From Trypanosoma brucei (Eukaryota): a DNA stretch of 64,000 nucleotides. The stretch is taken from positions 1,120,001 through 1,184,000 of the forward strand of contig CH464491.1 in assembly GCA_000002445.1 (NCBI GenBank), in the 5' to 3' direction. The position numbers and the translations under genes are program-made. Of the stretch, positions 1 through 61,466 are shown piece after piece; position 1 is the first letter of the stretch; every line of letters begins with the position of its first letter. The notes below the pieces were generated by a model, which was not told the origin of the DNA, did not search any database, and was given only the letters and a program-made list of their open reading frames with translations.

Positions 1-1489
1 CCTGTGCCTTGCTGCCACGCAAAACGGATCGTGTAAAGATGGCGTTGATACAGAGTCTGGTGAGGCGAGGGGTATCAGGCCCCTAATACAGCAAGAACTT
101 GTGGACGTCGTTGATCTTGACCCGTATGGTTCCGCTTCCCCCTTCCTTGAAGGTGCTGTGCGGTGCATTAGGGAAGGGGGACTATTGCTCGTGACGAGTA
201 CTGACAGCGCTATCTTGTGTGGGAATTACCCAGACACATGTCACGCAAAATACAACACTGTACCTACGAAAAATGCTGCGTGCCACGAGATGGCAGTGCG
301 CATCCTTCTCGCTGCCGTGGAGCGTGTGGCTAATAAACACCGCAAATACATTGTTCCGTTGCTTTCTCTGCATATCGATTTCTATGTTCGTTGCTTTGTT
401 CGTGTGTACACGCAGCCGGCAGAGGTGAAGCTCAGCCCATGTAAACTGGGTTATCTCATTCAGTGCAACCACTGCCCCGCGTTTTGGGTTAGACAAATAG
501 CCGTCTCACGTATGCGGGTGAAGAAGCGGTCTCGAAAACTAGGCAATGCGGGAGAAGACGTGACTGCCGGAAGTCAAGGCAATGTGGCGAAAAGTGAGGA
601 ACATCGCCTCTCAGATTCAGGAAATGCGAGAGGCACCAACGAGGGTGGGGAGGCGCACAAGGCTGATGAATGGGGGTGGGAACGATTCCCTGCAGCTCCA
701 TCCCGCCGTGAGAATCCCAAGATAGTTTCCCCTAGTCTCCAACAAATTTTTCCATCTTCACTGCGCGGTCACTGTTGTTGTGTTTGCGGAGCATCTGTGT
801 CGCTGTCTGGCCCCATCTACGCGGCCCCGACGCAGAGTGCGCCATTTCTCGGGCAGCTATTGGTAGAGATTGAGCGGCGCGCTTCTGCTAACCATATTAC
901 CGCTGTGGCGCGTATATCGGGCCTTGTTCGTGTTGCAATGGAAGAACTAGCCGATACCCCGCTCTTTTACCAGTTGCCAGACGTCGCCTCTTTTGTACGT
1001 GTCCGTTGTCCCCCCGCCCCGCTATTTATTGGAGCCCTAGGACGCAAGGGATACCGCTGCAGTCAAGTGCATTGTGCACCGTCAGGTATCAAGACTGATT
1101 GCCCCCCGGAAATTGTGGTCGGTGTGATGATGCAATGGAAGAAGTACGAAGAGGAAAATAATGAGAGAGTTGTTGAAGGAGGAAAAGAAGAGGATGCGGT
1201 GCTTGATATCCACTCTGATCGTGTGACCTCTCCTCCCGCCATGATTGAAGGCGGGGGTTGTGGAAGCGGTGACGGAAAGAGTAATGAGAGGGGAACCAGG
1301 AAGAAAGGGAGGGTAGATCAACGCGTGCCGCTAGTGAAACCTTTATCGGATGTTGACTTCTCCTACGACAAGCAATTTGATTTCCGTGGTGCTGTCACAG
1401 GCGTGGCGAAGTTTATTCCCAACGCCCCCAACTGGGGACCGAAGCGAAAACACCAAGGGGCCATGCATTCCGCTGTCGATGCTCCATGA
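1..1489 (+). CDS. TRM1: tRNA (guanine26-N2)-dimethyltransferase (TRM1), C-terminal part; 5' end lies upstream of the window
   Basis: The frame stays open from the window edge to the stop at 1487-1489. The translation contains DLDPYGS (the TRM1 SAM-MTase motif) and a C-terminal Cys/His cluster, QCNHCPAFW, typical of TRM1. The M at 101 in the ORF track is an alternative-start artefact. Confidence 0.75.
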   Translation, partial: LCLAATQNGSCKDGVDTESGEARGIRPLIQQELVDVVDLDPYGSASPFLEGAVRCIREGGLLLVTSTDSAILCGNYPDTCHAKYNTVPTKNAACHEMAVRILLAAVERVANKHRKYIVPLLSLHIDFYVRCFVRVYTQPAEVKLSPCKLGYLIQCNHCPAFWVRQIAVSRMRVKKRSRKLGNAGEDVTAGSQGNVAKSEEHRLSDSGNARGTNEGGEAHKADEWGWERFPAAPSRRENPKIVSPSLQQIFPSSLRGHCCCVCGASVSLSGPIYAAPTQSAPFLGQLLVEIERRASANHITAVARISGLVRVAMEELADTPLFYQLPDVASFVRVRCPPAPLFIGALGRKGYRCSQVHCAPSGIKTDCPPEIVVGVMMQWKKYEEENNERVVEGGKEEDAVLDIHSDRVTSPPAMIEGGGCGSGDGKSNERGTRKKGRVDQRVPLVKPLSDVDFSYDKQFDFRGAVTGVAKFIPNAPNWGPKRKHQGAMHSAVDAP

Positions 1490-8156: not shown

Positions 8157-10253
8157 GTGTCCCCCATCCTTTCTTTTTTAGAACGCTGTGTTTTTGAAAT
8201 GGGTGAATATCCAGACAACGCCACTGACACGTTATCCAGGGCGGAGCGCCTTGTGTCCAACATCAACGCCAAATTTGCCGCATTTCTACAGCAGTTGAAA
8301 CCAAACGAGCATCGCATCAATGGATATGGGGAGACGCTTGTAGATGGACGCACATCGGCATCTGGGTTTGTGAGAAATACCGAAATCATTGAATTGTACG
8401 GTCGAGAAGAAAGTACAAGTTCCACTCTCTTTGAAGATGCGTCCAACCCACATTATGTGCATCGCCGGAAGCGCTCATCCTCACTCTATTCGACATGTGG
8501 TCGAAGCAACCAAAGTGCCGAGCGGAATTTGTTTTTTGCTGCCAACGACTTGTGTATGTTTCTCAACGGTGGTGTGGACTACCGCAGTATTTGTTTGAAG
8601 TACCAGGAAACACTGGAGGTATTACTCGGCCTTATTCGCGATGACATTGGCATGCTGCACTCAGTTAGTATCTTCACCCCTGATATGGTATCGGATGCGG
8701 TGAAAACGCTTCGGAACCTCTACACGGAGGCAAAAATACTGCTTGAGCAACACGGTCTTGTCTCGGGTGCGCACTCACCGGAGAGACGTGCAAGTACTTC
8801 ACCTGGACGCTCACCCGACCACACGGCTACTCAAGTTGATCGCATCGGTTCCCAAGTTATGGGACAGAACAATAATGGTTTAGATAGTGGAAACGGTAGT
8901 GCACAGTCACGCAGCGGTGCTGAGGCACATGCTCACGCAATGTATGCGAATGGCGGCGGACACTCACCTCGGCCGGCTGCGCTTGTCGAGGGAATACTGA
9001 GTACGAGTAGCAACAAGCACCGTATTCCTTCCAGGCATACAGACACGGAGAGGTATTCCCCGTTGCATTTTTGCAGTAGCAAGTTGAAACCACAAACCAC
9101 AAAAGTGACACCTACTGAGGGTCCCGCGGCTCCCGATGAGGTGGACATAACCCAAGGTATTCATGGCTCCTCCACAAAAGAGCCTAAGATTTCAAATGAG
9201 GAGGCGTTTGGTCCCCATCCCAGGGAATGTAGGAATAACGCCCGTCGACTTGCGGTCCAGGAAGTGTATGAAAAAATTTTCCATAATGACGGCACTGATA
9301 TGCTTCGCGATGTAATGTGCCTCATAGCGGAGAAGGAGTACGGATTTACTGCTCCCGAGTTGAAGAAGTACGATGTTTGCTCCCAACTTGCAAGTCGCTT
9401 GCTCCACTGCTACGCAACCGCATCACAGCAACGCGACCAGGTACCAAATTCAGTTACAAGTGGCCCTACACTGCCTTTTGATTACATAGAGAATTGTTTC
9501 CACTGTAACGTTGAACCGAACGATCAAGTCTTAAACACGCTGAGTTGCATCGCAGTGGGGAAGCGAACCTTAAAGATCGTGCTGGCCAACATGCACATAA
9601 CCGACGATGATTTGCGACCCCTCGTGCCATTGCTATCGAAATTTGACCAAATGATCACCCTCGACATCAGTAATAACAGATTCGGTGACAATGGCGCACA
9701 GCTTCTTTGCAAATCGATGTTGGCCCACCCAGCGCTGAAGGAGCTCAATATTAGTGGAAATTTTGTAACAGATGCCAGTGCTGATGCACTTCTGCAGCTT
9801 GCGGCGTCAGCAACGCAATTGATGGTGGTGAGGAAGCAAGGCACCAATCTCAGTCCTGGTGTTTGTGAGGAACTCGAGAGGGCGCTCAGACGAGGACAAG
9901 GCTGTAGAAGCGCTCAGCGGTCCCTAGGAAGCGCATCGCACGTTTCCAGGCGCGCCCAATCCGAAGCAGATGCGTACAACTCTCCTTCTGCATTTTCTGG
10001 TGTTAGATCAACAAACCCACCTCCCGTTGTAGCTCTCAACAGTGTGGGTTATAAGTGGCAGCGACCCGCTGTTACGAGTAACTCAAATAGCCCCACGCCA
10101 ATTTCCCTAAGTCCTTCCCCTCTCAACTACGTTTTGCATGAGTGGGATAGGTTGGGTGCATGCATGGGTTCGTTGGATACAAACTGCGCACGGACACAAC
10201 AGGGTGTGCGACTGCCTTGTATCATAGCGAAGGGGAAAAAAGAGGGAATGTAA
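8157..10253 (+). CDS. Hypothetical protein with C-terminal RNI-like leucine-rich repeats
   Basis: 698-codon ORF. The likely start is the ATG at 8199 (MGEYPDN), directly after a polyY/AG. LRRs include LDISNNRFGDNGAQLLC...LKELNISGNFVTDASADALLQLA. Confidence 0.6.
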   Translation: MSPILSFLERCVFEMGEYPDNATDTLSRAERLVSNINAKFAAFLQQLKPNEHRINGYGETLVDGRTSASGFVRNTEIIELYGREESTSSTLFEDASNPHYVHRRKRSSSLYSTCGRSNQSAERNLFFAANDLCMFLNGGVDYRSICLKYQETLEVLLGLIRDDIGMLHSVSIFTPDMVSDAVKTLRNLYTEAKILLEQHGLVSGAHSPERRASTSPGRSPDHTATQVDRIGSQVMGQNNNGLDSGNGSAQSRSGAEAHAHAMYANGGGHSPRPAALVEGILSTSSNKHRIPSRHTDTERYSPLHFCSSKLKPQTTKVTPTEGPAAPDEVDITQGIHGSSTKEPKISNEEAFGPHPRECRNNARRLAVQEVYEKIFHNDGTDMLRDVMCLIAEKEYGFTAPELKKYDVCSQLASRLLHCYATASQQRDQVPNSVTSGPTLPFDYIENCFHCNVEPNDQVLNTLSCIAVGKRTLKIVLANMHITDDDLRPLVPLLSKFDQMITLDISNNRFGDNGAQLLCKSMLAHPALKELNISGNFVTDASADALLQLAASATQLMVVRKQGTNLSPGVCEELERALRRGQGCRSAQRSLGSASHVSRRAQSEADAYNSPSAFSGVRSTNPPPVVALNSVGYKWQRPAVTSNSNSPTPISLSPSPLNYVLHEWDRLGACMGSLDTNCARTQQGVRLPCIIAKGKKEGM

Positions 10254-13461: not shown

Positions 13462-13956
13462 GTGAAGGGGGTTGTGGGGATTGTAAGGGCGAAGAACACT
13501 GCTTGACAACAGAAATGAGCGGGCGGTTATAGGAACTCCGTGAAGCACTCTGCTGACGATTTTATCTGTACGGTGTACCTATACGACCAATGCTATCGAG
13601 CAGAGTAATGGTGGTATTAACGGTTTTCGTCAGTGACACACGCTCCAGTGTGTGCGAAAGCTTGTCACTTTCTTTCTGCACATGCTGTGCAGGCTTTGCC
13701 TTTTTGAAGCTTAATTTGTGTATGTTCAGCTGATCTTCGCTACTTTTTTTAACCTTACACTCCTTTCGTTTCCTTCCTCCGACGCAATGGCGGAACGTAC
13801 ACGCATGCATTGTAATGAGTACCGGAAAAACTCAAAGGCGCTTGCTATTGGAAACAAGGTCGAAGAAGAGGACAGGTGCCACCCCAGTGACGCGCGTCAG
13901 TTTATTGAGTTTATCAAAGGAAGGAGGAATTTTTAAAAAAAAAAAGAAGGGAAGAG

Positions 13957-14922
13957 ATGCCGCTCCCCACTGACCCGCGGGAGTGGGTGAAGAAAGTTAG
14001 GGCCAAAACACCGGTTCTGTTGGAAGTGGGGAAACCGGCCCCCAAGGCAGTATTAAGTTTTGGTGGTTGCGGTTTCCTTGTGACGTACTCGTTAGGAGTG
14101 GCCTTGTACCTCCAGCAGGAGAAGGCGGACTTATTAGCGCAGTCGTTTTTGCTAGGGGCGGGGGCGGGCGTCATTCCGGCTGTGGCGCTTGCTTGCGGTG
14201 CACGCGCCGTAAACATTGAGAAGGTGCGCGACGCCATCTTAGACAACCGCTTTATGGTAACAGATGAAGAAAGGCGGATTGAGGTACTGACCAAGTTCAT
14301 CAACCTGCTCCTTCCTCGCAATGCGGTGGAACTTGTTAGCGGGCGTCTAGCTCTTACCATTGGCTTTTCTAATCGTGACCCTGGTTACATGAAGCAGACG
14401 AAGGAGCAGATACACTTTGGGCATCATGTTGCCCAGTGGACAGATGTGAGTGACCTCGCGCAGTGTATTTTAGCCTCTATGGCGCCTAACACTGCTAAGC
14501 CTATGATATTTCGTGATGCGGATAATGTCATGCGAGGGACGATGATGTCCCTTAGCAGTGAACTCGACCAATACTGTAGACATATTTATATTCACGGATA
14601 CTGTGGTTACCCTTACAATAAACACCAAACGCGTCATAACATCTACTTTGGAAGACACGGCTTTCTCGCAAACACGTACTTTCCCTTTTGGAAGCAGGCG
14701 TTGCTGGCGTTCGCGCCGACTTTTGGTGGAGCAGCACGTCGTGAGGAACTGCTGGAGGCATACGACGCGGGATATAACGACGCAAGGCGCTATGAGCGTT
14801 GGGAGGAGGATCCTTACCATTTTTCGAAGGCAGATCGTTCACCAAGCGATGACTTTAGCTTCCGGCAGCTGCGGGCCAACCTGTTTGGTGGGAAGAAGGC
14901 AGCGGAAAGATTTGAACTGTAG
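13957..14922 (+). CDS. Patatin-like phospholipase (PNPLA) domain protein, with Gly in place of the nucleophile Ser (GAGAG)
   Basis: The N-terminus, LSFGGCGFLVTYSLGVALYL, aligns with the PNPLA oxyanion motif LSFAGCGFLGVY. The position corresponding to GASAG (GXSXG) reads LLGAGAGVIPAVALACG. A GRLALTIGF segment aligns with the PNPLA RLGISLTR block. Confidence 0.6.
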   Translation: MPLPTDPREWVKKVRAKTPVLLEVGKPAPKAVLSFGGCGFLVTYSLGVALYLQQEKADLLAQSFLLGAGAGVIPAVALACGARAVNIEKVRDAILDNRFMVTDEERRIEVLTKFINLLLPRNAVELVSGRLALTIGFSNRDPGYMKQTKEQIHFGHHVAQWTDVSDLAQCILASMAPNTAKPMIFRDADNVMRGTMMSLSSELDQYCRHIYIHGYCGYPYNKHQTRHNIYFGRHGFLANTYFPFWKQALLAFAPTFGGAARREELLEAYDAGYNDARRYERWEEDPYHFSKADRSPSDDFSFRQLRANLFGGKKAAERFEL

Positions 14923-16715: not shown

Positions 16716-18944
16716 TTGGAGAGGGGGCTCTGCCCTCGGAAGGGGAAAAAAGTTATGAATGATCGGCCACATTTTTATGAAGCACCAGACTTGATGGACG
16801 AGCACGGTGCACCCATAGTGTTTGATGATGTATATTCCGATTTATTATCTGTCGCAGTTGAAGAGAGTGCCAACGACGGATCGCGGCCCGTCTGTGGGCT
16901 AGAAGCCGTGAGACCCGTTGACAATGAGATTCACTCAGTTGCTGACGAAGGAACCGAAAGTGAGGGGAGGCACGCTCTCGACGTATTACTTTATGAGTAC
17001 GAGCACATAAGGAATGCAATGAAACGTTGTGTTCGTGCGAGTCACGAGGTGCTTCGAAACTTACAGCAAAAGCGTCATCGCATCGAACAGCAGGAACGCA
17101 CCGTGCGGCGGCGCACAGAGCTCGCATCGTCGTCAACATCTTTCCCCATATTCAAACTTAACGTGGGTGGAATGCGATTTCATGTACAACGAGAAACGTT
17201 TCTTCAGTTTGACGTGACCCTCTTTCACGTGTTGTGTAATGAACAATTCGCTGTCCAGAAGGATGAATGTGGATATGTTTTCTTCGACCGTGACCCATGG
17301 TTATTCCGTGAACTACTGTTCCTTTTACGAGAGCGGAAGCAATGCTTAGTGGAAAACGAAGTAGCCTCCCCGCTGGTACCGCCACAAGATCAACAGGGAG
17401 ATATGCAACATCACCGGCATCAGCGGCGGCCACAAGAACTGTATTCGGTAGGACAACGTAGATTGGCTGAATTGCCCCCCATTGAGCGCCAACGGCTGTT
17501 GGAAGAAGCGCGTTACTATGGTTTAAACGAACTCGTTGCGGAGCTTCTCACCAGGCAGTACGAGTGGCGGCACTGCGTATTTGGTCCTTTACCTTCCTTA
17601 GATTTAGCGCATGGATGCGACCAAGTCCAACCTCCTCTGCTCGCCAGTCCCCGTGAGTTTGAGTCGCAGCGATTAGAAGAAGGCGGACACACTCCGTTGC
17701 CGCCGCCACGATGCTGCTTTGCCTCTTCTGTCTTCCTGAATGGGAGTATTTACTTGTTCGGTGGCTTTGGCTCCGAAGGGGAAGTTATTGGGACTCTTTA
17801 TCGGTTTCAGCTGAAGCCTGGTAGTATGTGCGAGGCTGGAGCGGAGATTGAAGGAAATGATAGTGGGAGCTGTAGGGAACCGCATGGTGCCAATTCGGAC
17901 GCGAAAGGAAGACATACAAGAGCCAATGCGTGTGTTCCTGGACGCCCATTCATGTGGTATGACCTGGTTGAGCCGCATAGGGAAGGGAGGCGAGGTGTTC
18001 CACCACCACGTACCGGTCACGCTGCTGCTTCGTGGGGTAACTGCTTTGTGCTGGTGTTTTACGGTAACAACCTTTACCACCACTTGCGGGATGTTTGGAT
18101 GTACCACACTATTCAAAATGCGTGGTATGAGGTGAAAGTATGTGGGGCGGATGTTCCAGCCCGATCTGGGCATACCGTAACGGTTATGCAGGGTCGTTTT
18201 TATCTCTTCGGGGGGAAGGACCTCTTCCAGCGGGATGCCAGGTGTTTTGCGGATGTATACGAAGGGTTGTTTGACGCCGAAGGGATGGAGCTGACATGGA
18301 GATTGGCCTCTTCTTCGGGGGAAGTGCAACAGGCGGATCGGCTGCGGCAACCACTCGCCGCTTGTGATGAGAACTGTGGAGAGCCGTGCGATGCTCCCTC
18401 TGCGGCGTACCATAGTGCGGTTGAGCACAAGGGACGCTACATTATCGTGTATGGCGGTTTGCGTGATTCAGAGGGTATAACCAATGGGGAAAACCCGGGC
18501 GGCCTTCGTGGAAATATGGGTGTAGGGACTGCACCCGCTGCATATGACACAAACCTACGCTTGTACGTCTTTGATACACTTGGAGGCACATGGCAGCGTG
18601 TGCAGACACGTTGTGCCGAATCTAAGGATCAAATGGGTTCAGATATTCCTCTCACTGGTCACGTTGCCGTGCTCTGTCATGATCATATGTACGTAATGGG
18701 GTCGTATGATTGCACGCACCACCAGCGTTTGGAAGTGTTTCGGCTTTCGCTGGTGACCCTCTTGTGGTGCCGAGTGCCAACAAGCGTGGCAGTAGGTCAC
18801 ATTCCTCCTTGTAGCCGTGCCCTGCCAAGCATTGTGCTACTTCCCCCGACTGTCGAGGCACCACGTTCAGTGATAATGGTCTTTGGAGGTTATAACACTA
18901 ACACCTGTCAATACCTCAATGACTCTTACCTTATCTCATTGTGA
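16716..18944 (+). CDS. BTB/T1 (K-channel tetramerisation-like) plus Kelch beta-propeller protein
   Basis: FKLNVGGMRFHVQRETFLQFDVTLFHVL is a T1/BTB_2-like motif. There are multiple Kelch-like blades: SIYLFGGFG, GHAAASWGNCFVLVFYG, RSGHTVTVMQGRFYLFGGK, YHSAVEHKGRYIIVYGG, HMYVMGSYD and IMVFGGY. Confidence 0.6.
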   Translation: MERGLCPRKGKKVMNDRPHFYEAPDLMDEHGAPIVFDDVYSDLLSVAVEESANDGSRPVCGLEAVRPVDNEIHSVADEGTESEGRHALDVLLYEYEHIRNAMKRCVRASHEVLRNLQQKRHRIEQQERTVRRRTELASSSTSFPIFKLNVGGMRFHVQRETFLQFDVTLFHVLCNEQFAVQKDECGYVFFDRDPWLFRELLFLLRERKQCLVENEVASPLVPPQDQQGDMQHHRHQRRPQELYSVGQRRLAELPPIERQRLLEEARYYGLNELVAELLTRQYEWRHCVFGPLPSLDLAHGCDQVQPPLLASPREFESQRLEEGGHTPLPPPRCCFASSVFLNGSIYLFGGFGSEGEVIGTLYRFQLKPGSMCEAGAEIEGNDSGSCREPHGANSDAKGRHTRANACVPGRPFMWYDLVEPHREGRRGVPPPRTGHAAASWGNCFVLVFYGNNLYHHLRDVWMYHTIQNAWYEVKVCGADVPARSGHTVTVMQGRFYLFGGKDLFQRDARCFADVYEGLFDAEGMELTWRLASSSGEVQQADRLRQPLAACDENCGEPCDAPSAAYHSAVEHKGRYIIVYGGLRDSEGITNGENPGGLRGNMGVGTAPAAYDTNLRLYVFDTLGGTWQRVQTRCAESKDQMGSDIPLTGHVAVLCHDHMYVMGSYDCTHHQRLEVFRLSLVTLLWCRVPTSVAVGHIPPCSRALPSIVLLPPTVEAPRSVIMVFGGYNTNTCQYLNDSYLISL

Positions 18945-24334: not shown

Positions 24335-25891
24335 ATGTACCGACGCGCCGTTGCTGCTGCCATACCCGCCGTCACTGCCAAGAATGCACGGTCAATCTCG
24401 CAGTACAACTTTGGTCAGAAACCCCTGACTGAGTCGTGGTCACCGACTGGCCGCTCAACTCCCGCGGCAGCCGGTTCTGCTGCGCAGTCAGCTGGCATTG
24501 GTGAGGCGAAGACGACGCTACTCCCTAATGGAACCCGAATCATCACGCAGCAGCGGGGTGGTCCTGTGGTGTCAATCGGTGCCTATATTCTTGCGGGTCC
24601 TGCTTACGATCCAGTTGGCTGTCCGGGCCTTCATCATCTGATGCATACCGCACTCACGACAAGCAACTACAATAACTCACTCTTCCAACTGGACCGCAGT
24701 ATTCGCAGTACTGGTGCTTCGTTCTCTCACTTTGAGAAAGATAAGTACTACATCGGGCTTCGACTTGATGCTCGTGTTGACATGTGGAAGAGTAATACAA
24801 GCGGTGCAACAAGCGATGCGAAGCGGTTTGATCTTAACCTCTTACAAGATACAATATTCACCGCGATTTCTGCTCCAAGATTCCACGAACCGGATTTGGA
24901 GCGCTTTCGGGACACAATTGATAACAACCTGAAGGAGTTACGTTGGCAGCGCCCAGCGCAGTATGCTATTCAACAACTTGAAACCGTTGCATTTTACAAG
25001 GAGCCGCTGGGTAACCCCCGCCACGTTCCAGAGTGGAGTAACGGGCGCATTACAAGCAAGGCTTTGCTCGATCAGTATGCCAGATATGTAACTCCAGATC
25101 GTGTCGTTGTTGCCGGTGTCAATATGGAGCACGATGAACTCGTCGCCGAGTATGAAAGCAACCCATATCCGCATTCTAGCAACGCCCCGCACCACGCCGC
25201 GTTTGCCAAGGGTCTGGGCAAACCTGCTTTTGACATCACGAATGAACACTCCCAGTACAGCGGCGGTGAACTCCACGAACACGAAGACCGGCCAAAGGAA
25301 ATGTGTACGAAACCAGATATGGACACCGAGACCGCCATTGCAGTCGGTTATCTTGCGTTTGGTCGCTCCAAAACGTCCTTGCAGCGCTATGTGGCCACTC
25401 TTGTTTACCAACAGCTGTTCAACATAGTCATCCACGACAGTTTACGCTACGAGCAAGATGTCGTGCTGGACGGTGTGCGATCGTTTTACCTACCGTATCA
25501 CTCTGCTGGACTTGTGGGATTCACCGCTATAACCTCGCCAGAAAATGCTGTGCCGCTGGTTAAAGCGACAATGAAGGGCATTCAGAACGTGAAATTTGAT
25601 AATGCAGCACTATTGGAAGCAGCCAAGCACCGCGCTGCGGTTGAACTAACAAGTCAGTGCTGGGATTCGTCTCGCGACATATGTGACTATCTGGGCACAA
25701 GTTTGTCTCTTGACGCCAAGGCTTCCAACTCAACACAATACTTAAATCCCTCAGAGGTGCTAGCGGCTGTTCGCAACGTCACAGCCAGTGAGTTGAAAGA
25801 AGTGAAAGAGTGCATGATGGGCTCAAAACCCTCACTGTTTGGGCACGGGGAGATGTTGGCCTTCCCTTCACTCCGTCAGTTGGGAGCGTAA
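24335..25891 (+). CDS. Peptidase M16-family protein without catalytic motif (MPP alpha-subunit-like), with a probable mitochondrial presequence
   Basis: TLLPNGTRIITQQ...SIGAYILAGPAYDPVGCPGLHHLMHTAL aligns with the M16 N-terminal block (LPNGLRV...GxAHFLEHM), but the HxxEH zinc motif is degenerate (HHLMH). The N-terminus MYRRAVAAAIPAVTAKNARS is R/A-rich. Confidence 0.55.
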   Translation: MYRRAVAAAIPAVTAKNARSISQYNFGQKPLTESWSPTGRSTPAAAGSAAQSAGIGEAKTTLLPNGTRIITQQRGGPVVSIGAYILAGPAYDPVGCPGLHHLMHTALTTSNYNNSLFQLDRSIRSTGASFSHFEKDKYYIGLRLDARVDMWKSNTSGATSDAKRFDLNLLQDTIFTAISAPRFHEPDLERFRDTIDNNLKELRWQRPAQYAIQQLETVAFYKEPLGNPRHVPEWSNGRITSKALLDQYARYVTPDRVVVAGVNMEHDELVAEYESNPYPHSSNAPHHAAFAKGLGKPAFDITNEHSQYSGGELHEHEDRPKEMCTKPDMDTETAIAVGYLAFGRSKTSLQRYVATLVYQQLFNIVIHDSLRYEQDVVLDGVRSFYLPYHSAGLVGFTAITSPENAVPLVKATMKGIQNVKFDNAALLEAAKHRAAVELTSQCWDSSRDICDYLGTSLSLDAKASNSTQYLNPSEVLAAVRNVTASELKEVKECMMGSKPSLFGHGEMLAFPSLRQLGA

Positions 25892-53266: not shown

Positions 53267-54379
53267 ATGATATGTCGTTTCCCTGTTGATATAAGTAAGG
53301 TGTGGGGCAACAAACGTTTTCAAGGGCAGTTATATCTTAATATGACTTCCGCAGGTCGTCCGCAGGTAACTCTTGACGAAAATTACACTGGAGAGGATGT
53401 GGGCAATTTGAGCCGCAGTGCCACTTTGGAATGCCTCACAGCCAAAAAGTGCGGAAAATTGAAGAGCGTGAAATTCGAAAAGGCAAAGAACCTCGTTTGC
53501 TTGCACGCCGAGAGTTGTGGAAAACTGAAAGTTATCGACGTGAGCTCTTGCTGCAAATTAGAGTCACTAACGGTCACGAAATGCAAAAATCTTAAAGAAG
53601 TGCATGGTCTTCCAGACGCATGTGAGTTGCTTGCTTTGAATTTATCTGGATGTGGAAAACTGGAACAGGTAGAGGGGTTATGTGCAACAAATATTAAGGT
53701 AAAGAAACTTAACTTGAGTGGCTGTAAGCTGTTGGAGCCTCTGGGAGTTTTGGGATGCTGCAAGAATGTGACAGAGTTGGATCTAAGTGGATGCAAAAAT
53801 ATCAACCAGAGCTCCATGGAGATAGCATGCAAAGAGCTCAACGGTCTGGAGACTCTGAAACTGAGCGGAGTTCCTACAGTATCAGATAATTGGGTTTGGT
53901 CCCTTGGGGTAAGCAACAGGTCTAACGCCAACCTGCTGTATTTGGACCTTTCTCGGTGCTTGGATATAGAAAATGCGGGGCCGTTGTCGATGATACGCTC
54001 CTTAAAGGAATTGTCTCTTGACGGCTGCACCAGCATTTCTAAGGGTTTGGAAGCGGTATGCGGTCTCCCCAACTTGAAGAAACTGTTATTGAGCAAAACG
54101 AAGGTAACAGATGAATGCCTCGAGAATATCAAAGGGAACAGAAACCTAGTGGTGCTTGGTTGCAGCGGGTGTCTAGGCATCAGCAGCATTTCGTGTATTG
54201 GGGAGGTAAAATCACTTGAAGAATTGTCCTTGGAGGGCTGCACTAACATTAAAAAAGGACTGGACATACTGCCTCGCCTTCCGAAACTTCAAAAATTGTG
54301 GATATGTGGCTTAAATGTTCCTGAAACAATAAAGCAAAAGCTAAAAACCCAGGGTGTCAAGACGAACCCACTCCGGTAG
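53267..54379 (+). CDS. ESAG8-like leucine-rich repeat protein (LRRP), lacking the N-terminal RING finger
   Basis: Tandem 23-25-aa LRRs in ESAG8 style: LNLSGCKLLEPLGVLGCCKNVTELDLSGCKNI, LEELSLEGCTNIKKGLDIL and LDLSRCLDIENAGPLSMIRSLKELSLDGC. The C-terminus resembles the ESAG8 tail. Confidence 0.65.
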   Translation: MICRFPVDISKVWGNKRFQGQLYLNMTSAGRPQVTLDENYTGEDVGNLSRSATLECLTAKKCGKLKSVKFEKAKNLVCLHAESCGKLKVIDVSSCCKLESLTVTKCKNLKEVHGLPDACELLALNLSGCGKLEQVEGLCATNIKVKKLNLSGCKLLEPLGVLGCCKNVTELDLSGCKNINQSSMEIACKELNGLETLKLSGVPTVSDNWVWSLGVSNRSNANLLYLDLSRCLDIENAGPLSMIRSLKELSLDGCTSISKGLEAVCGLPNLKKLLLSKTKVTDECLENIKGNRNLVVLGCSGCLGISSISCIGEVKSLEELSLEGCTNIKKGLDILPRLPKLQKLWICGLNVPETIKQKLKTQGVKTNPLR

Positions 54380-56904: not shown

Positions 56905-57975
56905 ATGTGTGGTATTAAATATTGCGTCGTTTTGTTTGCCTTGGTGCTCCGAACAAGTATCTCCGGGGAGGGAAAAATTGTCAATGAAGATGAATTTGGA
57001 GCCCTATGTGGTATGATAAATCTGGCTCAGGCTGGATTGAGGAAGATAAAGGAGGTCCGAGAAACCATTAAAGGTACGATAAGAATTGGATCAAGATGCC
57101 TCGAGCTTACTGGGGGTAGGGTATTGGACACGATTTGTGAGGGAGAAAATAGTAGAAACTGCGAAAATCGCAGAACGTTTTGGAAGAAAGCGGAAAGTTC
57201 ATCGAACAAAAAAATAGCCGGAGACGGTCTTCTAGATCGACAAACGGAGGAAATGATTAGGAAGATAGGAGGTGAAGCCGCAGACCTATATGAGGATGTC
57301 ACGAGGAAGCAATGGGTACCATTTGCAAATGCACTGGAAGAAAAAATCAACGAAGCCCTCTATGGTGTGCCTTGGAGACCAGAAGAGATTAAGGAAAACA
57401 CTACAGACAGAAAGCAACTATGTCAGCAGGAGATTTCACGGAACGCGGTGCATTACCCACCAGCGTCGTTGAGCAGGGATTTATTATGTGTCTGCGCGAT
57501 GGACCTGGAGTCAGTGAGGAAGCACAGACTTTGCTGCGAATTTTGCGGTTACGAAGATAATCGGGAGGTTTGGAAACCAAACAAGGATTCGTGGGAAAGA
57601 TGGAACTTTCTTCGAGCACACTGTGCATTTCTTGGAGAACCTAAGGAAGATTTCGAGAAACTTGCGAGCACGTTCAGGCGCCTGATAAATCAGCAACACA
57701 ACACGCCTATCGGGGTTATGTACATCTTGGGATACCAGAAGAGAAACAGCTTCTGGTCCCTTGGGCTCTCGTCAAGGGGACCTATGGGTCCGGGTGTGCA
57801 TTATGTTTTAATGGGAAAAGAGAAAACGACTGACGATATACCATGGTTGAAACTGTTGCGAGAGGTGACAATGGAGATGGGACAACCGGCTCAAGACAAT
57901 GTCCAAGAAGGTGAGTTCACAGAGGCCCTTGAGAAGTTGGAACAAGACCTCGAAAAATTGATTCAGACAAAGTGA
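56905..57975 (+). CDS. Cys-rich predicted secreted protein (signal peptide, no TM or GPI tail); possibly ESAG-like
   Basis: The N-terminus, MCGIKYCVVLFALVLRTSISGEG, is a signal peptide. There are about 14 Cys, including CEGENSRNC and CCEFC, and a hydrophilic C-terminus (EKLIQTK). Confidence 0.5.
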   Translation: MCGIKYCVVLFALVLRTSISGEGKIVNEDEFGALCGMINLAQAGLRKIKEVRETIKGTIRIGSRCLELTGGRVLDTICEGENSRNCENRRTFWKKAESSSNKKIAGDGLLDRQTEEMIRKIGGEAADLYEDVTRKQWVPFANALEEKINEALYGVPWRPEEIKENTTDRKQLCQQEISRNAVHYPPASLSRDLLCVCAMDLESVRKHRLCCEFCGYEDNREVWKPNKDSWERWNFLRAHCAFLGEPKEDFEKLASTFRRLINQQHNTPIGVMYILGYQKRNSFWSLGLSSRGPMGPGVHYVLMGKEKTTDDIPWLKLLREVTMEMGQPAQDNVQEGEFTEALEKLEQDLEKLIQTK

Positions 57976-60158: not shown

Positions 60159-61466
60159 TTGACGTTATTTTTTTTTTCTTACGATCAGGATGTCTGTAAC
60201 AGCAAGGGCAGCAAAGGAAGAGAAGTTTTAGCGATGCTAATGAACACCCCGCTAAAGAGGGTAGAAGACATACCACCACTTCTTCGTGAACGGCTTACGA
60301 AAGCAGAGGAGAGCGGGTGGAAAATTCTTGACCTCTCGGGTTGTAAAGAAACTTTGGATGTCACGGCGCTCACTGAGGTCGGCATGCTGGAACAACTATC
60401 CCTGGAGGGTTGCACAAACTTGAGAAGAGGGCTGCGGGAAATATGCAACGGGGAAAGAACGCGCAATCTGAGGACGCTGCACTTAAGCAACCTACCCATG
60501 CTTGATGACACATGCATTAAGATATTGGGGGGAACACACCTACGGCTCGAACTGTTCACCTGCGCACACTGTAAGAACGTAACGAACGTTAGGCCCCTAG
60601 CGGAAATCAAGGCCCTGAAGAGCCTTTCGCTCGGACACTGCGTGAATATCAAGCATGGTCTGAAGGAAATTTGCGGAGGTCTGACGAATATGAGGGCTCT
60701 CTGGATCAACCACATACCGGCTGTCGACGATGCGTGCATTGCGGAGCTCGGCGCAAAAGGCGACGGTTACGAAGGCCATCTGATTTGGTTAATTTGCGAT
60801 GGATGTCTTGGGATAACGGATGTTACGGCCATTTCGGAGATCAAGACATTAAAGAGACTTTCGCTGACGGGATGCGAGAACATAACGAAGGGGCTAGAGG
60901 AGATGTGCGCCAGTGAGAAACTGCAGGACCTGCAAGACCTATGGGTGAATAACGTGAAGGCGTTCAGTGATAAGTGCCTTTTGAATCTGGAGGAAAGTCA
61001 CAGGAAGGGCGGATGGAAACTGCAGGTGCTCAGCACCAAAGACTGCTGCAGCATAACAGACGTGTCACCCCTGGGGAAGCTGGTAACGTTGAGGGTGCTA
61101 TGCCTTGACGGGTGCGTGAACATTAAACAAGGTCTGGATCATGTCATACTGTCGCTGGTCGATTTGAGGGAAGCGTACTTGGGAGGCATTGGCATAACCG
61201 ATAGGCATATTGAGCTGCTTGGTCGCCACAAAAAAATTGAACGATTACACCTCCCTTTTTCAGGGAACATTACAGATATTACTCCCTTAACGAATGTCTG
61301 GACACTGGAGGCTTTGTGCTTGTGCGGGTGTCTAAAGGCTACAAGGGGATTTGAAAAGTTTTCTACACTCTTCAGACTCAAAAAGTTGTGTGTGTGTGGT
61401 GTTTACGTCGATGCGGACACAGTCATGGCCCTAAAGGGTAAAGGAGTGGCTGTGAAGCTGTGGTAG
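60159..61466 (+). CDS. ESAG8-like leucine-rich repeat protein (LRRP), second copy
   Basis: LRRs include LEQLSLEGCTNLRRGLREI, LKSLSLGHCVNIKHGLKEICGG, LKRLSLTGCENITKGLEEMC and LRVLCLDGCVNIKQGLDH. The likely start is MLMNTP at about 60233, after a polyY tract at 60165-60180. Confidence 0.65.
   Translation: MTLFFFSYDQDVCNSKGSKGREVLAMLMNTPLKRVEDIPPLLRERLTKAEESGWKILDLSGCKETLDVTALTEVGMLEQLSLEGCTNLRRGLREICNGERTRNLRTLHLSNLPMLDDTCIKILGGTHLRLELFTCAHCKNVTNVRPLAEIKALKSLSLGHCVNIKHGLKEICGGLTNMRALWINHIPAVDDACIAELGAKGDGYEGHLIWLICDGCLGITDVTAISEIKTLKRLSLTGCENITKGLEEMCASEKLQDLQDLWVNNVKAFSDKCLLNLEESHRKGGWKLQVLSTKDCCSITDVSPLGKLVTLRVLCLDGCVNIKQGLDHVILSLVDLREAYLGGIGITDRHIELLGRHKKIERLHLPFSGNITDITPLTNVWTLEALCLCGCLKATRGFEKFSTLFRLKKLCVCGVYVDADTVMALKGKGVAVKLW

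What the first reader, a model, noticed from the sequence alone, without database searches (positions are those of the whole stretch)
14140..14190. Patatin-like protein whose GXSXG nucleophile serine is replaced by glycine (GAGAG)
The domain aligns well with PNPLA-type patatin lipases (LSFGGCGFL oxyanion block and a GRLALTIGF block). At the nucleophile elbow the sequence is LLGAGAGVIPAVALACG, encoded by ggggcgggggcgggc, instead of G-x-S-x-G. Without the Ser of the Ser-Asp dyad the protein should be catalytically dead. That suggests a pseudo-lipase with a scaffolding or regulatory role.
Basis: partly seen in the sequence, partly recalled or inferred. Interest (0 to 1): 0.55.

Follow-up and report, generated by a model that had tools for sequence, protein, structure and literature searches.

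The report
Conserved dead patatin-like lipase homologue
This Trypanosoma brucei gene encodes a lipase-shaped (patatin-fold) protein that has lost both catalytic residues, yet it is kept almost unchanged across kinetoplastids, so it most likely works by binding something rather than by cutting lipids.

Summary

This is not a sequencing error. Gly69 is present in 68/68 family members and is encoded by different Gly codons in three Trypanosoma species. The T. brucei codon is GGG, which needs two changes to become Ser.

A deep profile-profile alignment (99.9 %, E 1e-33) places canonical "FRGxxYIDGG" on "FRDADNVMRGT". Asp is therefore Arg193, present in 68/70 members. The only T. brucei-specific change is Thr70 to Ala.

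The gene is under strong constraint. It is 83-86 % identical to T. vivax and T. melophagium, against 27-60 % for its syntenic neighbours, and about 69 % identical to Bodo saltans. The oxyanion loop, a His-rich segment (aa 208-239) and an RWEEDPY motif are almost invariant.

Best reading: an ancient ATGL-type pseudo-lipase retained as a binding or regulatory module. Its function is untested. Ser-less patatins are already known (plant pPLAIII, Toxoplasma TgPL1), so interest is moderate.

The parts
13957..14922 (+). Complete CDS (321 aa plus stop) of the patatin-fold protein. It is identical to T. brucei TREU927 Q386C0/XP_828473 and to T. equiperdum TEOVI_000780200.
14053..14079 (+). LSFGGCGFL (aa 33-41): the retained Gly-rich oxyanion-hole loop, of the PNPLA1-5/ATGL type (SFxGxGF). 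S34, G36, G37 and G39 are conserved in 65-66 of the 66 sequences that cover this region.
14155..14169 (+). Former nucleophile elbow G67-A68-G69-A70-G71. G69 (GGG, 14161-14163) occupies the catalytic Ser column. A70 (GCG, 14164-14166) is Ser or Thr in all relatives outside the T. brucei group.
14341..14367 (+). GRLALTIGF (aa 129-137): homologous to the canonical 'SGRLxVSVT' strand of ATGL-type patatins.
14509..14541 (+). FRDADNVMRGT (aa 185-195): counterpart of the canonical 'FRGxxYIDGG' D-segment. R193 (CGA, 14533-14535) occupies the catalytic Asp column.
   Evidence: R in 68/70; well-supported stretch of the hhalign alignment; AF2 places a strand at 188-193
14578..14673 (+). Family-specific His-rich segment RHIYIHGYCGYPYNKHQTRHNIYFGRHGFLAN (aa 208-239). 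It aligns with the canonical 'RTITVSPFSGxxDIxP' block and what follows it. R208, H209 and H227 are in 70/70 members, H213 in 69/70, H234 in 67/70.
14770..14817 (+). GYNDARRYERWEEDPY (aa 272-287): the PNPLA 'GYxDA' C-terminal helix, extended by a nearly invariant family-specific RYERWEEDPY motif.
14818..14919 (+). Tail predicted to be disordered (pLDDT below 50 for most of it). It carries a conserved DRSP motif and a frequent C-terminal [FY]-[ED]-L end (ERFEL here).

Best explanation
The gene encodes an ancient, strongly conserved pseudo-lipase of the ATGL/PNPLA1-5 branch of the patatin fold. It keeps the fold, the Gly-rich oxyanion loop, the tight strand-turn-helix elbow and the C-terminal GYxDA helix. 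Both residues of the Ser-Asp dyad have been replaced in essentially the whole family: Ser to Gly69 and Asp to Arg193. It therefore cannot carry out patatin-type acyl hydrolysis. That much is shown, apart from the inference from residues to activity. The rest is inferred. The remodelled pocket now has backbone amides of two Gly-rich loops and a helix N-terminus, plus an Arg where the Asp was. It is probably kept as a binding site for an anionic or lipid ligand. The family-specific invariant surfaces are the His-rich segment at aa 208-239 and the acidic RWEEDPY motif. By alignment with an ATGL-like sequence, the His-rich segment corresponds to the region after 'VSPFSGE', which in PNPLA2 is the regulatory segment contacted by ABHD5. 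These surfaces probably dock partner proteins. The protein would then act as a non-catalytic regulator or adaptor in lipid metabolism. The most specific candidate role is modulation of the one canonical patatin lipase of T. brucei, TbPat (Tb927.4.1780). That would parallel the nucleophile-less ABHD5 co-activating ATGL, and the dead-paralogue 'prozymes' of trypanosomatids.
Against: There are no experimental data on activity, localisation, partners or phenotype, and no paper in the searched library mentions the protein. Plant GxGxG patatins are reported to retain lipase activity, so inferring inactivity from sequence has failed to convince before, although those proteins keep the Asp. Strict invariance of the oxyanion loop and of four His residues could equally point to a new catalytic centre. 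I could not inspect model coordinates, so the position of R193 and the His residues relative to the pocket is inferred from homology and was not measured. The link to TbPat is by analogy only. The two proteins are distant: identity to canonical ATGL-type sequences is about 22-28 %.
Confidence: 0.62

Rival explanations
1. Neo-functionalised enzyme. The patatin scaffold has acquired a different catalytic centre, built from the invariant His209, His213, His227 and His234, Glu202, Asp204 and Arg193. This could be a metal site or a His-based site acting on a phosphate- or carboxylate-bearing substrate.
Against: No known metal-binding or catalytic signature is detected. Pfam gives only Patatin plus a sub-threshold zf-CCCH_PAN3 hit at E 0.09, and the Cys residues that hit relies on are not conserved. 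No nucleophile candidate is invariant near the pocket: position 70 is Ala in T. brucei, and S200 is Ala in P0037. AF2 confidence is lowest inside this segment, at residues 228-231, which suggests a flexible loop rather than a rigid active site.
Confidence: 0.15
2. The protein is still an acyl hydrolase that uses non-canonical residues, as claimed for plant pPLAIII (GxGxG). Ser/Thr70 next to the elbow might serve as the nucleophile.
For: pPLAIII proteins with GxGxG are reported to show lipase activity. Position 70 is Ser or Thr in 64/68 family members.
Against: T. brucei, T. b. gambiense and T. equiperdum have Ala70, while the rest of the protein stays under the same constraint. The dyad Asp is also replaced, by Arg, unlike in pPLAIII, which keeps DGG. 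S/T70 sits at the start of the predicted helix 69-80. That fits a helix-capping role, and the same position is variable in canonical enzymes.
Confidence: 0.06
3. The protein is a purely structural subunit or assembly factor of a large complex, with no ligand pocket function. Precedent: FabD-like acyltransferase-fold proteins are found in mitoribosome assembly intermediates.
Against: A sequence search of all PDB chains found no match (best E 0.03, to unrelated RadA). The protein is therefore absent from every structure held in that PDB copy, which includes T. brucei ribosome and mitoribosome entries. No N-terminal targeting peptide is obvious; this comes from my reading of the sequence and was not tested.
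Confidence: 0.12
4. Artefact: a sequencing error at the Ser codon, or a decaying pseudogene.
For: None, beyond the G+C-rich repetitive codon run GGGGCGGGGGCGGGC.
Against: The identical protein occurs in independent assemblies: TREU927, T. equiperdum OVI, and near-identical forms in gambiense and other equiperdum assemblies. Gly69 is in 68/68 homologues with different codons. The ORF is intact, synteny is kept, and pN is far below pS.
Confidence: 0.01

Closest known systems
ATGL/PNPLA2-type patatin lipases (PNPLA1-5 branch), including T. brucei TbPat Tb927.4.1780
   Same: They share the patatin fold and the SFxGCGFL oxyanion loop. They also share the elbow geometry, the 'GRLxxxxT' strand, the conserved Pro, the 'FRGxxxx[D]GG' D-segment frame, the 'RxIxVxxFxG' strand and the C-terminal 'GYxDA' helix. 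The profile-profile alignment covers 233 columns at 99.9 % probability.
   Different: The catalytic Ser is Gly69 and the catalytic Asp is Arg193. 'VSPFSGE' has become 'IHGYCGY', followed by a His-rich segment. An RWEEDPY motif is added. There is no long hydrophobic lipid-droplet-targeting C-terminal half such as the one described for TbPat and ATGL. Identity is only about 22-28 %.
Plant patatin-related phospholipase AIII (pPLAIII) subfamily
   Same: It has the non-canonical GxGxG esterase box in place of GxSxG, conserved across a whole subfamily.
   Different: pPLAIII keeps the Asp of the DGG motif and is reported to hydrolyse lipids. Here the Asp is also lost. The nearest sequence relatives inspected here are ATGL-type, so the Ser-to-Gly change probably arose independently (inference).
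Toxoplasma gondii TgPL1
   Same: [quoted passage not shown]
   Different: According to that review, TgPL1 keeps the other catalytic residues. It belongs to a different lineage, and no specific sequence relationship was found or tested here.
ABHD5/CGI-58, and trypanosomatid 'prozymes' such as the dead deoxyhypusine synthase paralogue
   Same: These are functional analogies. Each is a hydrolase-like or enzyme-like protein without a catalytic nucleophile that regulates an active lipase or enzyme by protein-protein contact.
   Different: ABHD5 has a different fold (alpha/beta hydrolase). The prozymes are closer paralogues of their partners. No interaction has been shown for this protein.

Membership tests
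Patatin / PNPLA domain superfamily (PF01734), structural membership | Significant match to the family HMM | tested here: met
   PF01734 scores 31.5 bits against the gathering cut-off of 27.7, E 2.5e-7, over aa 33-176. Profile-profile alignment to canonical members gives E 1e-33.
Patatin / PNPLA domain superfamily (PF01734), structural membership | Three-layer alpha/beta/alpha patatin fold | tested here: met
   [not shown]
Patatin / PNPLA domain superfamily (PF01734), structural membership | Gly-rich oxyanion-hole loop after strand 1 | tested here: met
   SFGGCGFL aligns with the canonical SFxGCGFL. G36, G37 and G39 are conserved in at least 65 of the 66 sequences that cover the region.
Patatin-like (phospho)lipase, catalytic membership | Nucleophile Ser in a GxSxG elbow | tested here: not met
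   G69 occupies the Ser column and is Gly in 68/68 family members.
Patatin-like (phospho)lipase, catalytic membership | Asp of the DG[GA] motif completing the Ser-Asp dyad | tested here: not met
   R193-G-T aligns with D-G-G. It is Arg in 68/70, Ser in 1 and Thr in 1. A shallower profile put H213 there. Neither alignment places an Asp there.
Patatin-like (phospho)lipase, catalytic membership | Measurable acyl-hydrolase activity | not testable with these tools
   This needs recombinant protein assays or activity-based probe labelling.
Plant-type pPLAIII (GxGxG patatins) | GxGxG esterase box | tested here: met
   GAGAG here, and GxG[S/T]G in relatives.
Plant-type pPLAIII (GxGxG patatins) | Retained DGG Asp and lipase activity | tested here: not met
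   The Asp is replaced by Arg193. Activity was not testable.
Trypanosomatid prozyme-type dead paralogue | A catalytically dead homologue co-exists with an active homologue in the same genome | tested here: met
   This protein has a dead dyad. TbPat Tb927.4.1780 is reported as the active ATGL orthologue with Ser68/Asp194.
Trypanosomatid prozyme-type dead paralogue | Physical complex with the active enzyme, and activation of it | not testable with these tools
   This needs co-purification and activity assays. It is only an analogy.

The most novel reading that the evidence does not exclude
The former Ser-Asp pocket of a patatin fold has been rebuilt into something new, lined by an Arg and invariant His residues. 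It would be either a new enzyme chemistry on the patatin scaffold, or a dedicated lipid or anion sensor that controls the sole ATGL-type lipase (TbPat) in a prozyme-like way. On this reading the protein is essential, and specific to kinetoplastids and their close relatives.
Probability: 0.2. Interest if true: 0.65.

Novelty: new variant of a known kind. Interest (0 to 1): 0.4.

Why it matters
Trypanosomatids depend on lipid scavenging and mobilisation, and they are known to control enzymes through catalytically dead paralogues. This protein is 83-86 % identical among trypanosomes and about 69 % identical to free-living Bodo, which makes it far better conserved than its genomic neighbours. Despite having no dyad, it almost certainly does something important. 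If it regulates the recently described lipid-droplet lipase TbPat, or binds a specific lipid, it would be a parasite-lineage-specific control point. No close counterpart was found outside this family in the protein libraries searched. It would also be a clean example of a doubly inactivated patatin fold. If it is only a passive scaffold, it is one more entry in the long list of pseudoenzymes.

Tried and rejected
- **PDB sequence search:** it gave only E 0.03 matches to archaeal RadA and weaker noise. I rejected these as chance, because the fold searches say patatin.
- **zf-CCCH_PAN3 hit:** this sub-threshold Pfam hit (aa 204-218, E 0.09) was rejected. C207 and C216 are not conserved in the family.
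- **First hhalign run:** with shallow profiles (24 against 11 sequences) it placed canonical DGG on H213-G214 in a weakly supported stretch. A deeper run (65 against 69 sequences) and MAFFT both place it on R193-G194, with matching flanks (FRG...DGG and RTITVSPFSG). I adopted the latter.
- **dN/dS:** it could not be computed because synonymous sites are saturated (pS above 0.75). I report pN and pS instead.
- **Structure library:** the AFDB50 library was unavailable.
- **TriTrypDB gene ID and literature:** attempts to find the gene ID, and any localisation or phenotype data linked to it, found nothing.
- **T. cruzi serine-hydrolase profiling preprint:** it mentions patatin-like enzymes but nothing that can be assigned to this orthologue.
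- **Model coordinates:** they cannot be read with these tools, so the distances from R193 and the His residues to the pocket were not measured.
- **Taxonomy of the most distant homologues:** this was addressed only indirectly. The eL13 protein on the same contig as P0055 is closest to Euglena and then to kinetoplastid eL13.

Full report
**1. What is in the sequence**

Window 13957-14922 (+) is an intact ORF of 321 codons. LLGAGAGVIPAVALACG is aa 65-81. G67-A-G-A-G71 is nt 14155-14169, GGGGCGGGGGCGGGC. The two other blocks are also present: LSFGGCGFL (aa 33-41) and GRLALTIGF (aa 129-137).

The protein is 100 % identical to T. brucei brucei TREU927 XP_828473/EAN79361 (UniProt Q386C0, "hypothetical protein, conserved; PNPLA domain-containing") and to T. 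equiperdum TEOVI_000780200. All large ORFs around it lie on the + strand, as expected for a trypanosomatid polycistronic unit.

**2. It is a patatin-fold protein**

- Pfam Patatin (PF01734) matches above the curated threshold: 31.5 against 27.7 bits, aa 33-176. Only profile positions 1-161 of 191 are matched, so the end of the profile is not.
- An AlphaFold2 model built on a 24-sequence alignment is confident: mean pLDDT 84, pTM 0.83. Confidence is low only at residues 228-231 and in the C-terminal tail.
- Foldseek against the PDB returns only patatin-type phospholipases at the top: CapE, CapV, PlpD, ExoU, VipD, iPLA2-beta and patatin.

**3. The nucleophile is gone, in the whole family**

I aligned the protein with the canonical relatives found by an exhaustive profile search. 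The canonical G-A-S-A-G falls on G67-A-G69-A-G71 in three alignments:
- MAFFT;
- hhalign with shallow profiles (99.7 %);
- hhalign with deeper profiles, 65 family sequences against 69 canonical ones (99.9 %, E 1.2e-33, 233 aligned columns).

In 68 of 68 family sequences that cover this region, positions 67, 69 and 71 are Gly. Position 70 is Ser in 41, Thr in 23 and Ala in 4. Those four are all from the T. brucei group. T. congolense, T. vivax, T. cruzi and T. melophagium have Thr. The ancestral motif is therefore GAG[S/T]G, and the only T. brucei-specific event is Thr70 to Ala (ACN to GCG).

Gly69 is encoded by GGG in T. brucei, GGA in T. vivax and GGC in T. melophagium. The codon has turned over while the residue stayed, which excludes a sequencing error. 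The relevant codon is GGG and needs two substitutions.

**4. The Asp is gone too**

The canonical "F-R-G-x-x-Y-I-D-G-G" aligns with "F-R-D-A-D-N-V-M-R193-G-T". In more distant members the match is even more literal, for example YRGVKVVRGS. The next canonical block, "R-T-I-T-V-S-P-F-S-G", aligns with "R208-H-I-Y-I-H-G-Y-C-G217".

The spacing between the two blocks also agrees: 14 residues in the canonical protein P0098 and 15 in this protein. The AF2 model has a strand at 188-193 ending at R193-G194. Arg193 is present in 68 of 70 sequences, and the two most divergent members have Ser or Thr.

The shallow hhalign run had placed DGG on H213-G214 in a weakly supported stretch. The deeper run resolves this in favour of R193. 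In neither alignment is there an Asp. Both residues of the Ser-Asp dyad are therefore missing.

**5. It is nevertheless under very strong constraint**

- The syntenic block LRR protein, ~400-aa protein, this gene, ~350-aa protein, BTB/Kelch protein is conserved in T. vivax and T. melophagium.
- Across these species the protein is 85.8 % and 83.0 % identical. The four neighbours range from 27 % to 60 %.
- Non-synonymous differences are 8-11 % of sites. Synonymous sites are saturated (pS 0.83-0.88), so no numerical dN/dS can be given.
- Identity is about 75 % to Strigomonas, 70-72 % to Phytomonas, about 69 % to the cluster that contains Bodo saltans CUF00435, and 55 % to Trypanoplasma borreli.
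- Environmental sequences go down to about 35 % identity. The contig carrying the most distant one (P0055) also carries an eL13 gene. Its best PDB matches are the Euglena gracilis protein and then the kinetoplastid proteins. This is consistent with a euglenozoan origin but does not prove it.
- A search of 1.84 billion representative proteins shows a discrete family. Six 50 %-identity representatives score E <= 1e-75. Then there is a gap to E ~1e-10. Of 140 non-family hits held, 69 carry both GxSxG and a downstream DG[GA], and the ones I inspected are ATGL/PNPLA1-5-like.

**6. What is conserved**

Nearly invariant positions fall into four groups:
- the oxyanion loop, S34-F-G-G-x-G39;
- the elbow, G67, G69 and G71, plus A75 and A77;
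- a family-specific His-rich segment: R208, H209 and H227 in 70/70, H213 in 69/70, H234 in 67/70, with G214, G217, G232, G235 and N239 invariant in the 24-sequence alignment;
- the C-terminal helix G272-Y-x-D-A, extended by R-R-Y-E-R-W-E-E-D-P-Y.

The disordered tail carries a conserved D-R-S-P motif and often ends in [F/Y]-[E/D]-L.

**7. Mechanism**

Shown: the fold is patatin, the dyad is absent, and selection is strong.

Inferred from established knowledge of the fold: without Ser and Asp, the patatin acyl-enzyme mechanism cannot operate. Gly is the residue best tolerated at the strained elbow position, which explains why it is fixed. Ser/Thr70 lies at the start of the predicted helix 69-80 and probably caps it. 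Ala in T. brucei shows the hydroxyl is dispensable.

The pocket keeps its two Gly-rich loops and gains an Arg where the Asp was. This is the make-up of an anion-binding site (phosphate or carboxylate). I therefore favour retention of ligand binding without turnover.

By alignment with ATGL-like sequences, the His-rich segment corresponds to the region after 'VSPFSGE'. In human PNPLA2 this is described as the regulatory segment involved in co-activation by ABHD5. Together with the acidic WEEDPY motif, it is the best candidate for a protein-protein interface.

There are three relevant precedents:
- Trypanosomatids use dead paralogues as activators, for example of deoxyhypusine synthase.
- ABHD5, a hydrolase-fold protein without a nucleophile, co-activates ATGL.
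- T. brucei has one canonical ATGL orthologue, TbPat Tb927.4.1780, on lipid droplets.

Regulation of TbPat is therefore the most specific testable hypothesis. It rests on analogy only.

My estimates are:
- about 0.85 that the protein has no patatin-type hydrolase activity;
- about 0.6 that it acts through binding or regulation;
- about 0.15 that the partner is TbPat.

**8. Rivals**

- A new catalytic centre built from the His cluster and Arg cannot be excluded (about 0.15).
- Residual hydrolase activity, as claimed for plant GxGxG patatins, is unlikely. Those proteins keep the Asp, and T. brucei lacks even the neighbouring hydroxyl.
- A purely structural role in a large complex is possible. 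The protein matches no chain of any solved structure by sequence.
- An artefact or pseudogene is refuted.

**9. Comparison with known families and novelty**

Structurally this is a member of the patatin/PNPLA superfamily, closest to the ATGL-type branch. It fails both catalytic membership criteria.

Ser-less patatins are known. The plant pPLAIII subfamily has GxGxG but keeps DGG. Toxoplasma TgPL1 lacks the Ser, while its other catalytic residues are said to be present.

This family differs in three ways. It has lost both dyad residues. It has its own invariant His-rich and WEEDPY motifs. Among named organisms it is confined to kinetoplastids, and the unnamed environmental relatives are possibly other euglenozoans.

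No paper in the searched library mentions it. The recent TbPat study found only Tb927.4.1780 because it searched for GxSxG. I rate it a new variant of a known kind and of moderate interest.

Noticed in passing
window 13935-13945: An A11 homopolymer lies just upstream of the start codon. One public assembly (P0061, 372 aa) reads through from an upstream ATG near 13806, adding 51 residues. In this window that frame carries stop codons, and all orthologues start at MP(L)PTDP. The long form is probably an artefact of homopolymer length.
   Followed up: partly
window 56905-57975 (+), flanked by 53267-54379 and 60159-61466: An ORF with a full-length trypanosomal VSG_B domain (235 bits) sits between two leucine-rich-repeat ORFs, on the same strand as the housekeeping genes. 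This may be a chromosome-internal cluster of VSG-related and LRR-protein genes.
   Followed up: no
window 24335-25891 (+): This is an M16 peptidase-like protein. Its 'inactive' C-terminal domain scores above threshold. Its N-terminal catalytic domain is just below the Pfam cut-off (21.4 against 22.3 bits). It may be another non-catalytic enzyme homologue, such as an MPP-alpha or core-protein type.
   Followed up: no
window 101-1489, 1582-2655, 8157-10253, 16716-18944 (+): Neighbouring genes: a TRM1-type N2,N2-dimethylguanosine tRNA methyltransferase (its 5' end is probably outside the ORF call), a glycosyltransferase family 25 protein, an LRR protein and a BTB/Kelch protein. The LRR to BTB/Kelch order around the patatin-like gene is conserved in T. 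vivax and T. melophagium.
   Followed up: partly
window 14905-14919 (aa 317-321) and family alignment: The extreme C-terminus ends in ERFEL. Roughly 45 of the 70 family sequences end in an aromatic residue, an acidic residue (occasionally Ser or Thr), then Leu, although the tail is predicted to be disordered. The D-R-S-P motif at aa 293-296 is also nearly invariant. These could be a docking motif and a proline-directed phosphosite.
   Followed up: no
L005 1-391 (contig ctg4015l, about 10 kb upstream of the distant homologue P0055): A lipin/LNS2 (phosphatidate phosphatase) gene lies about 10 kb from the most divergent family member, on a eukaryotic metagenome contig. This is probably coincidental, since eukaryotic gene order carries little functional signal.
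   Followed up: no
[not shown]
   Followed up: no
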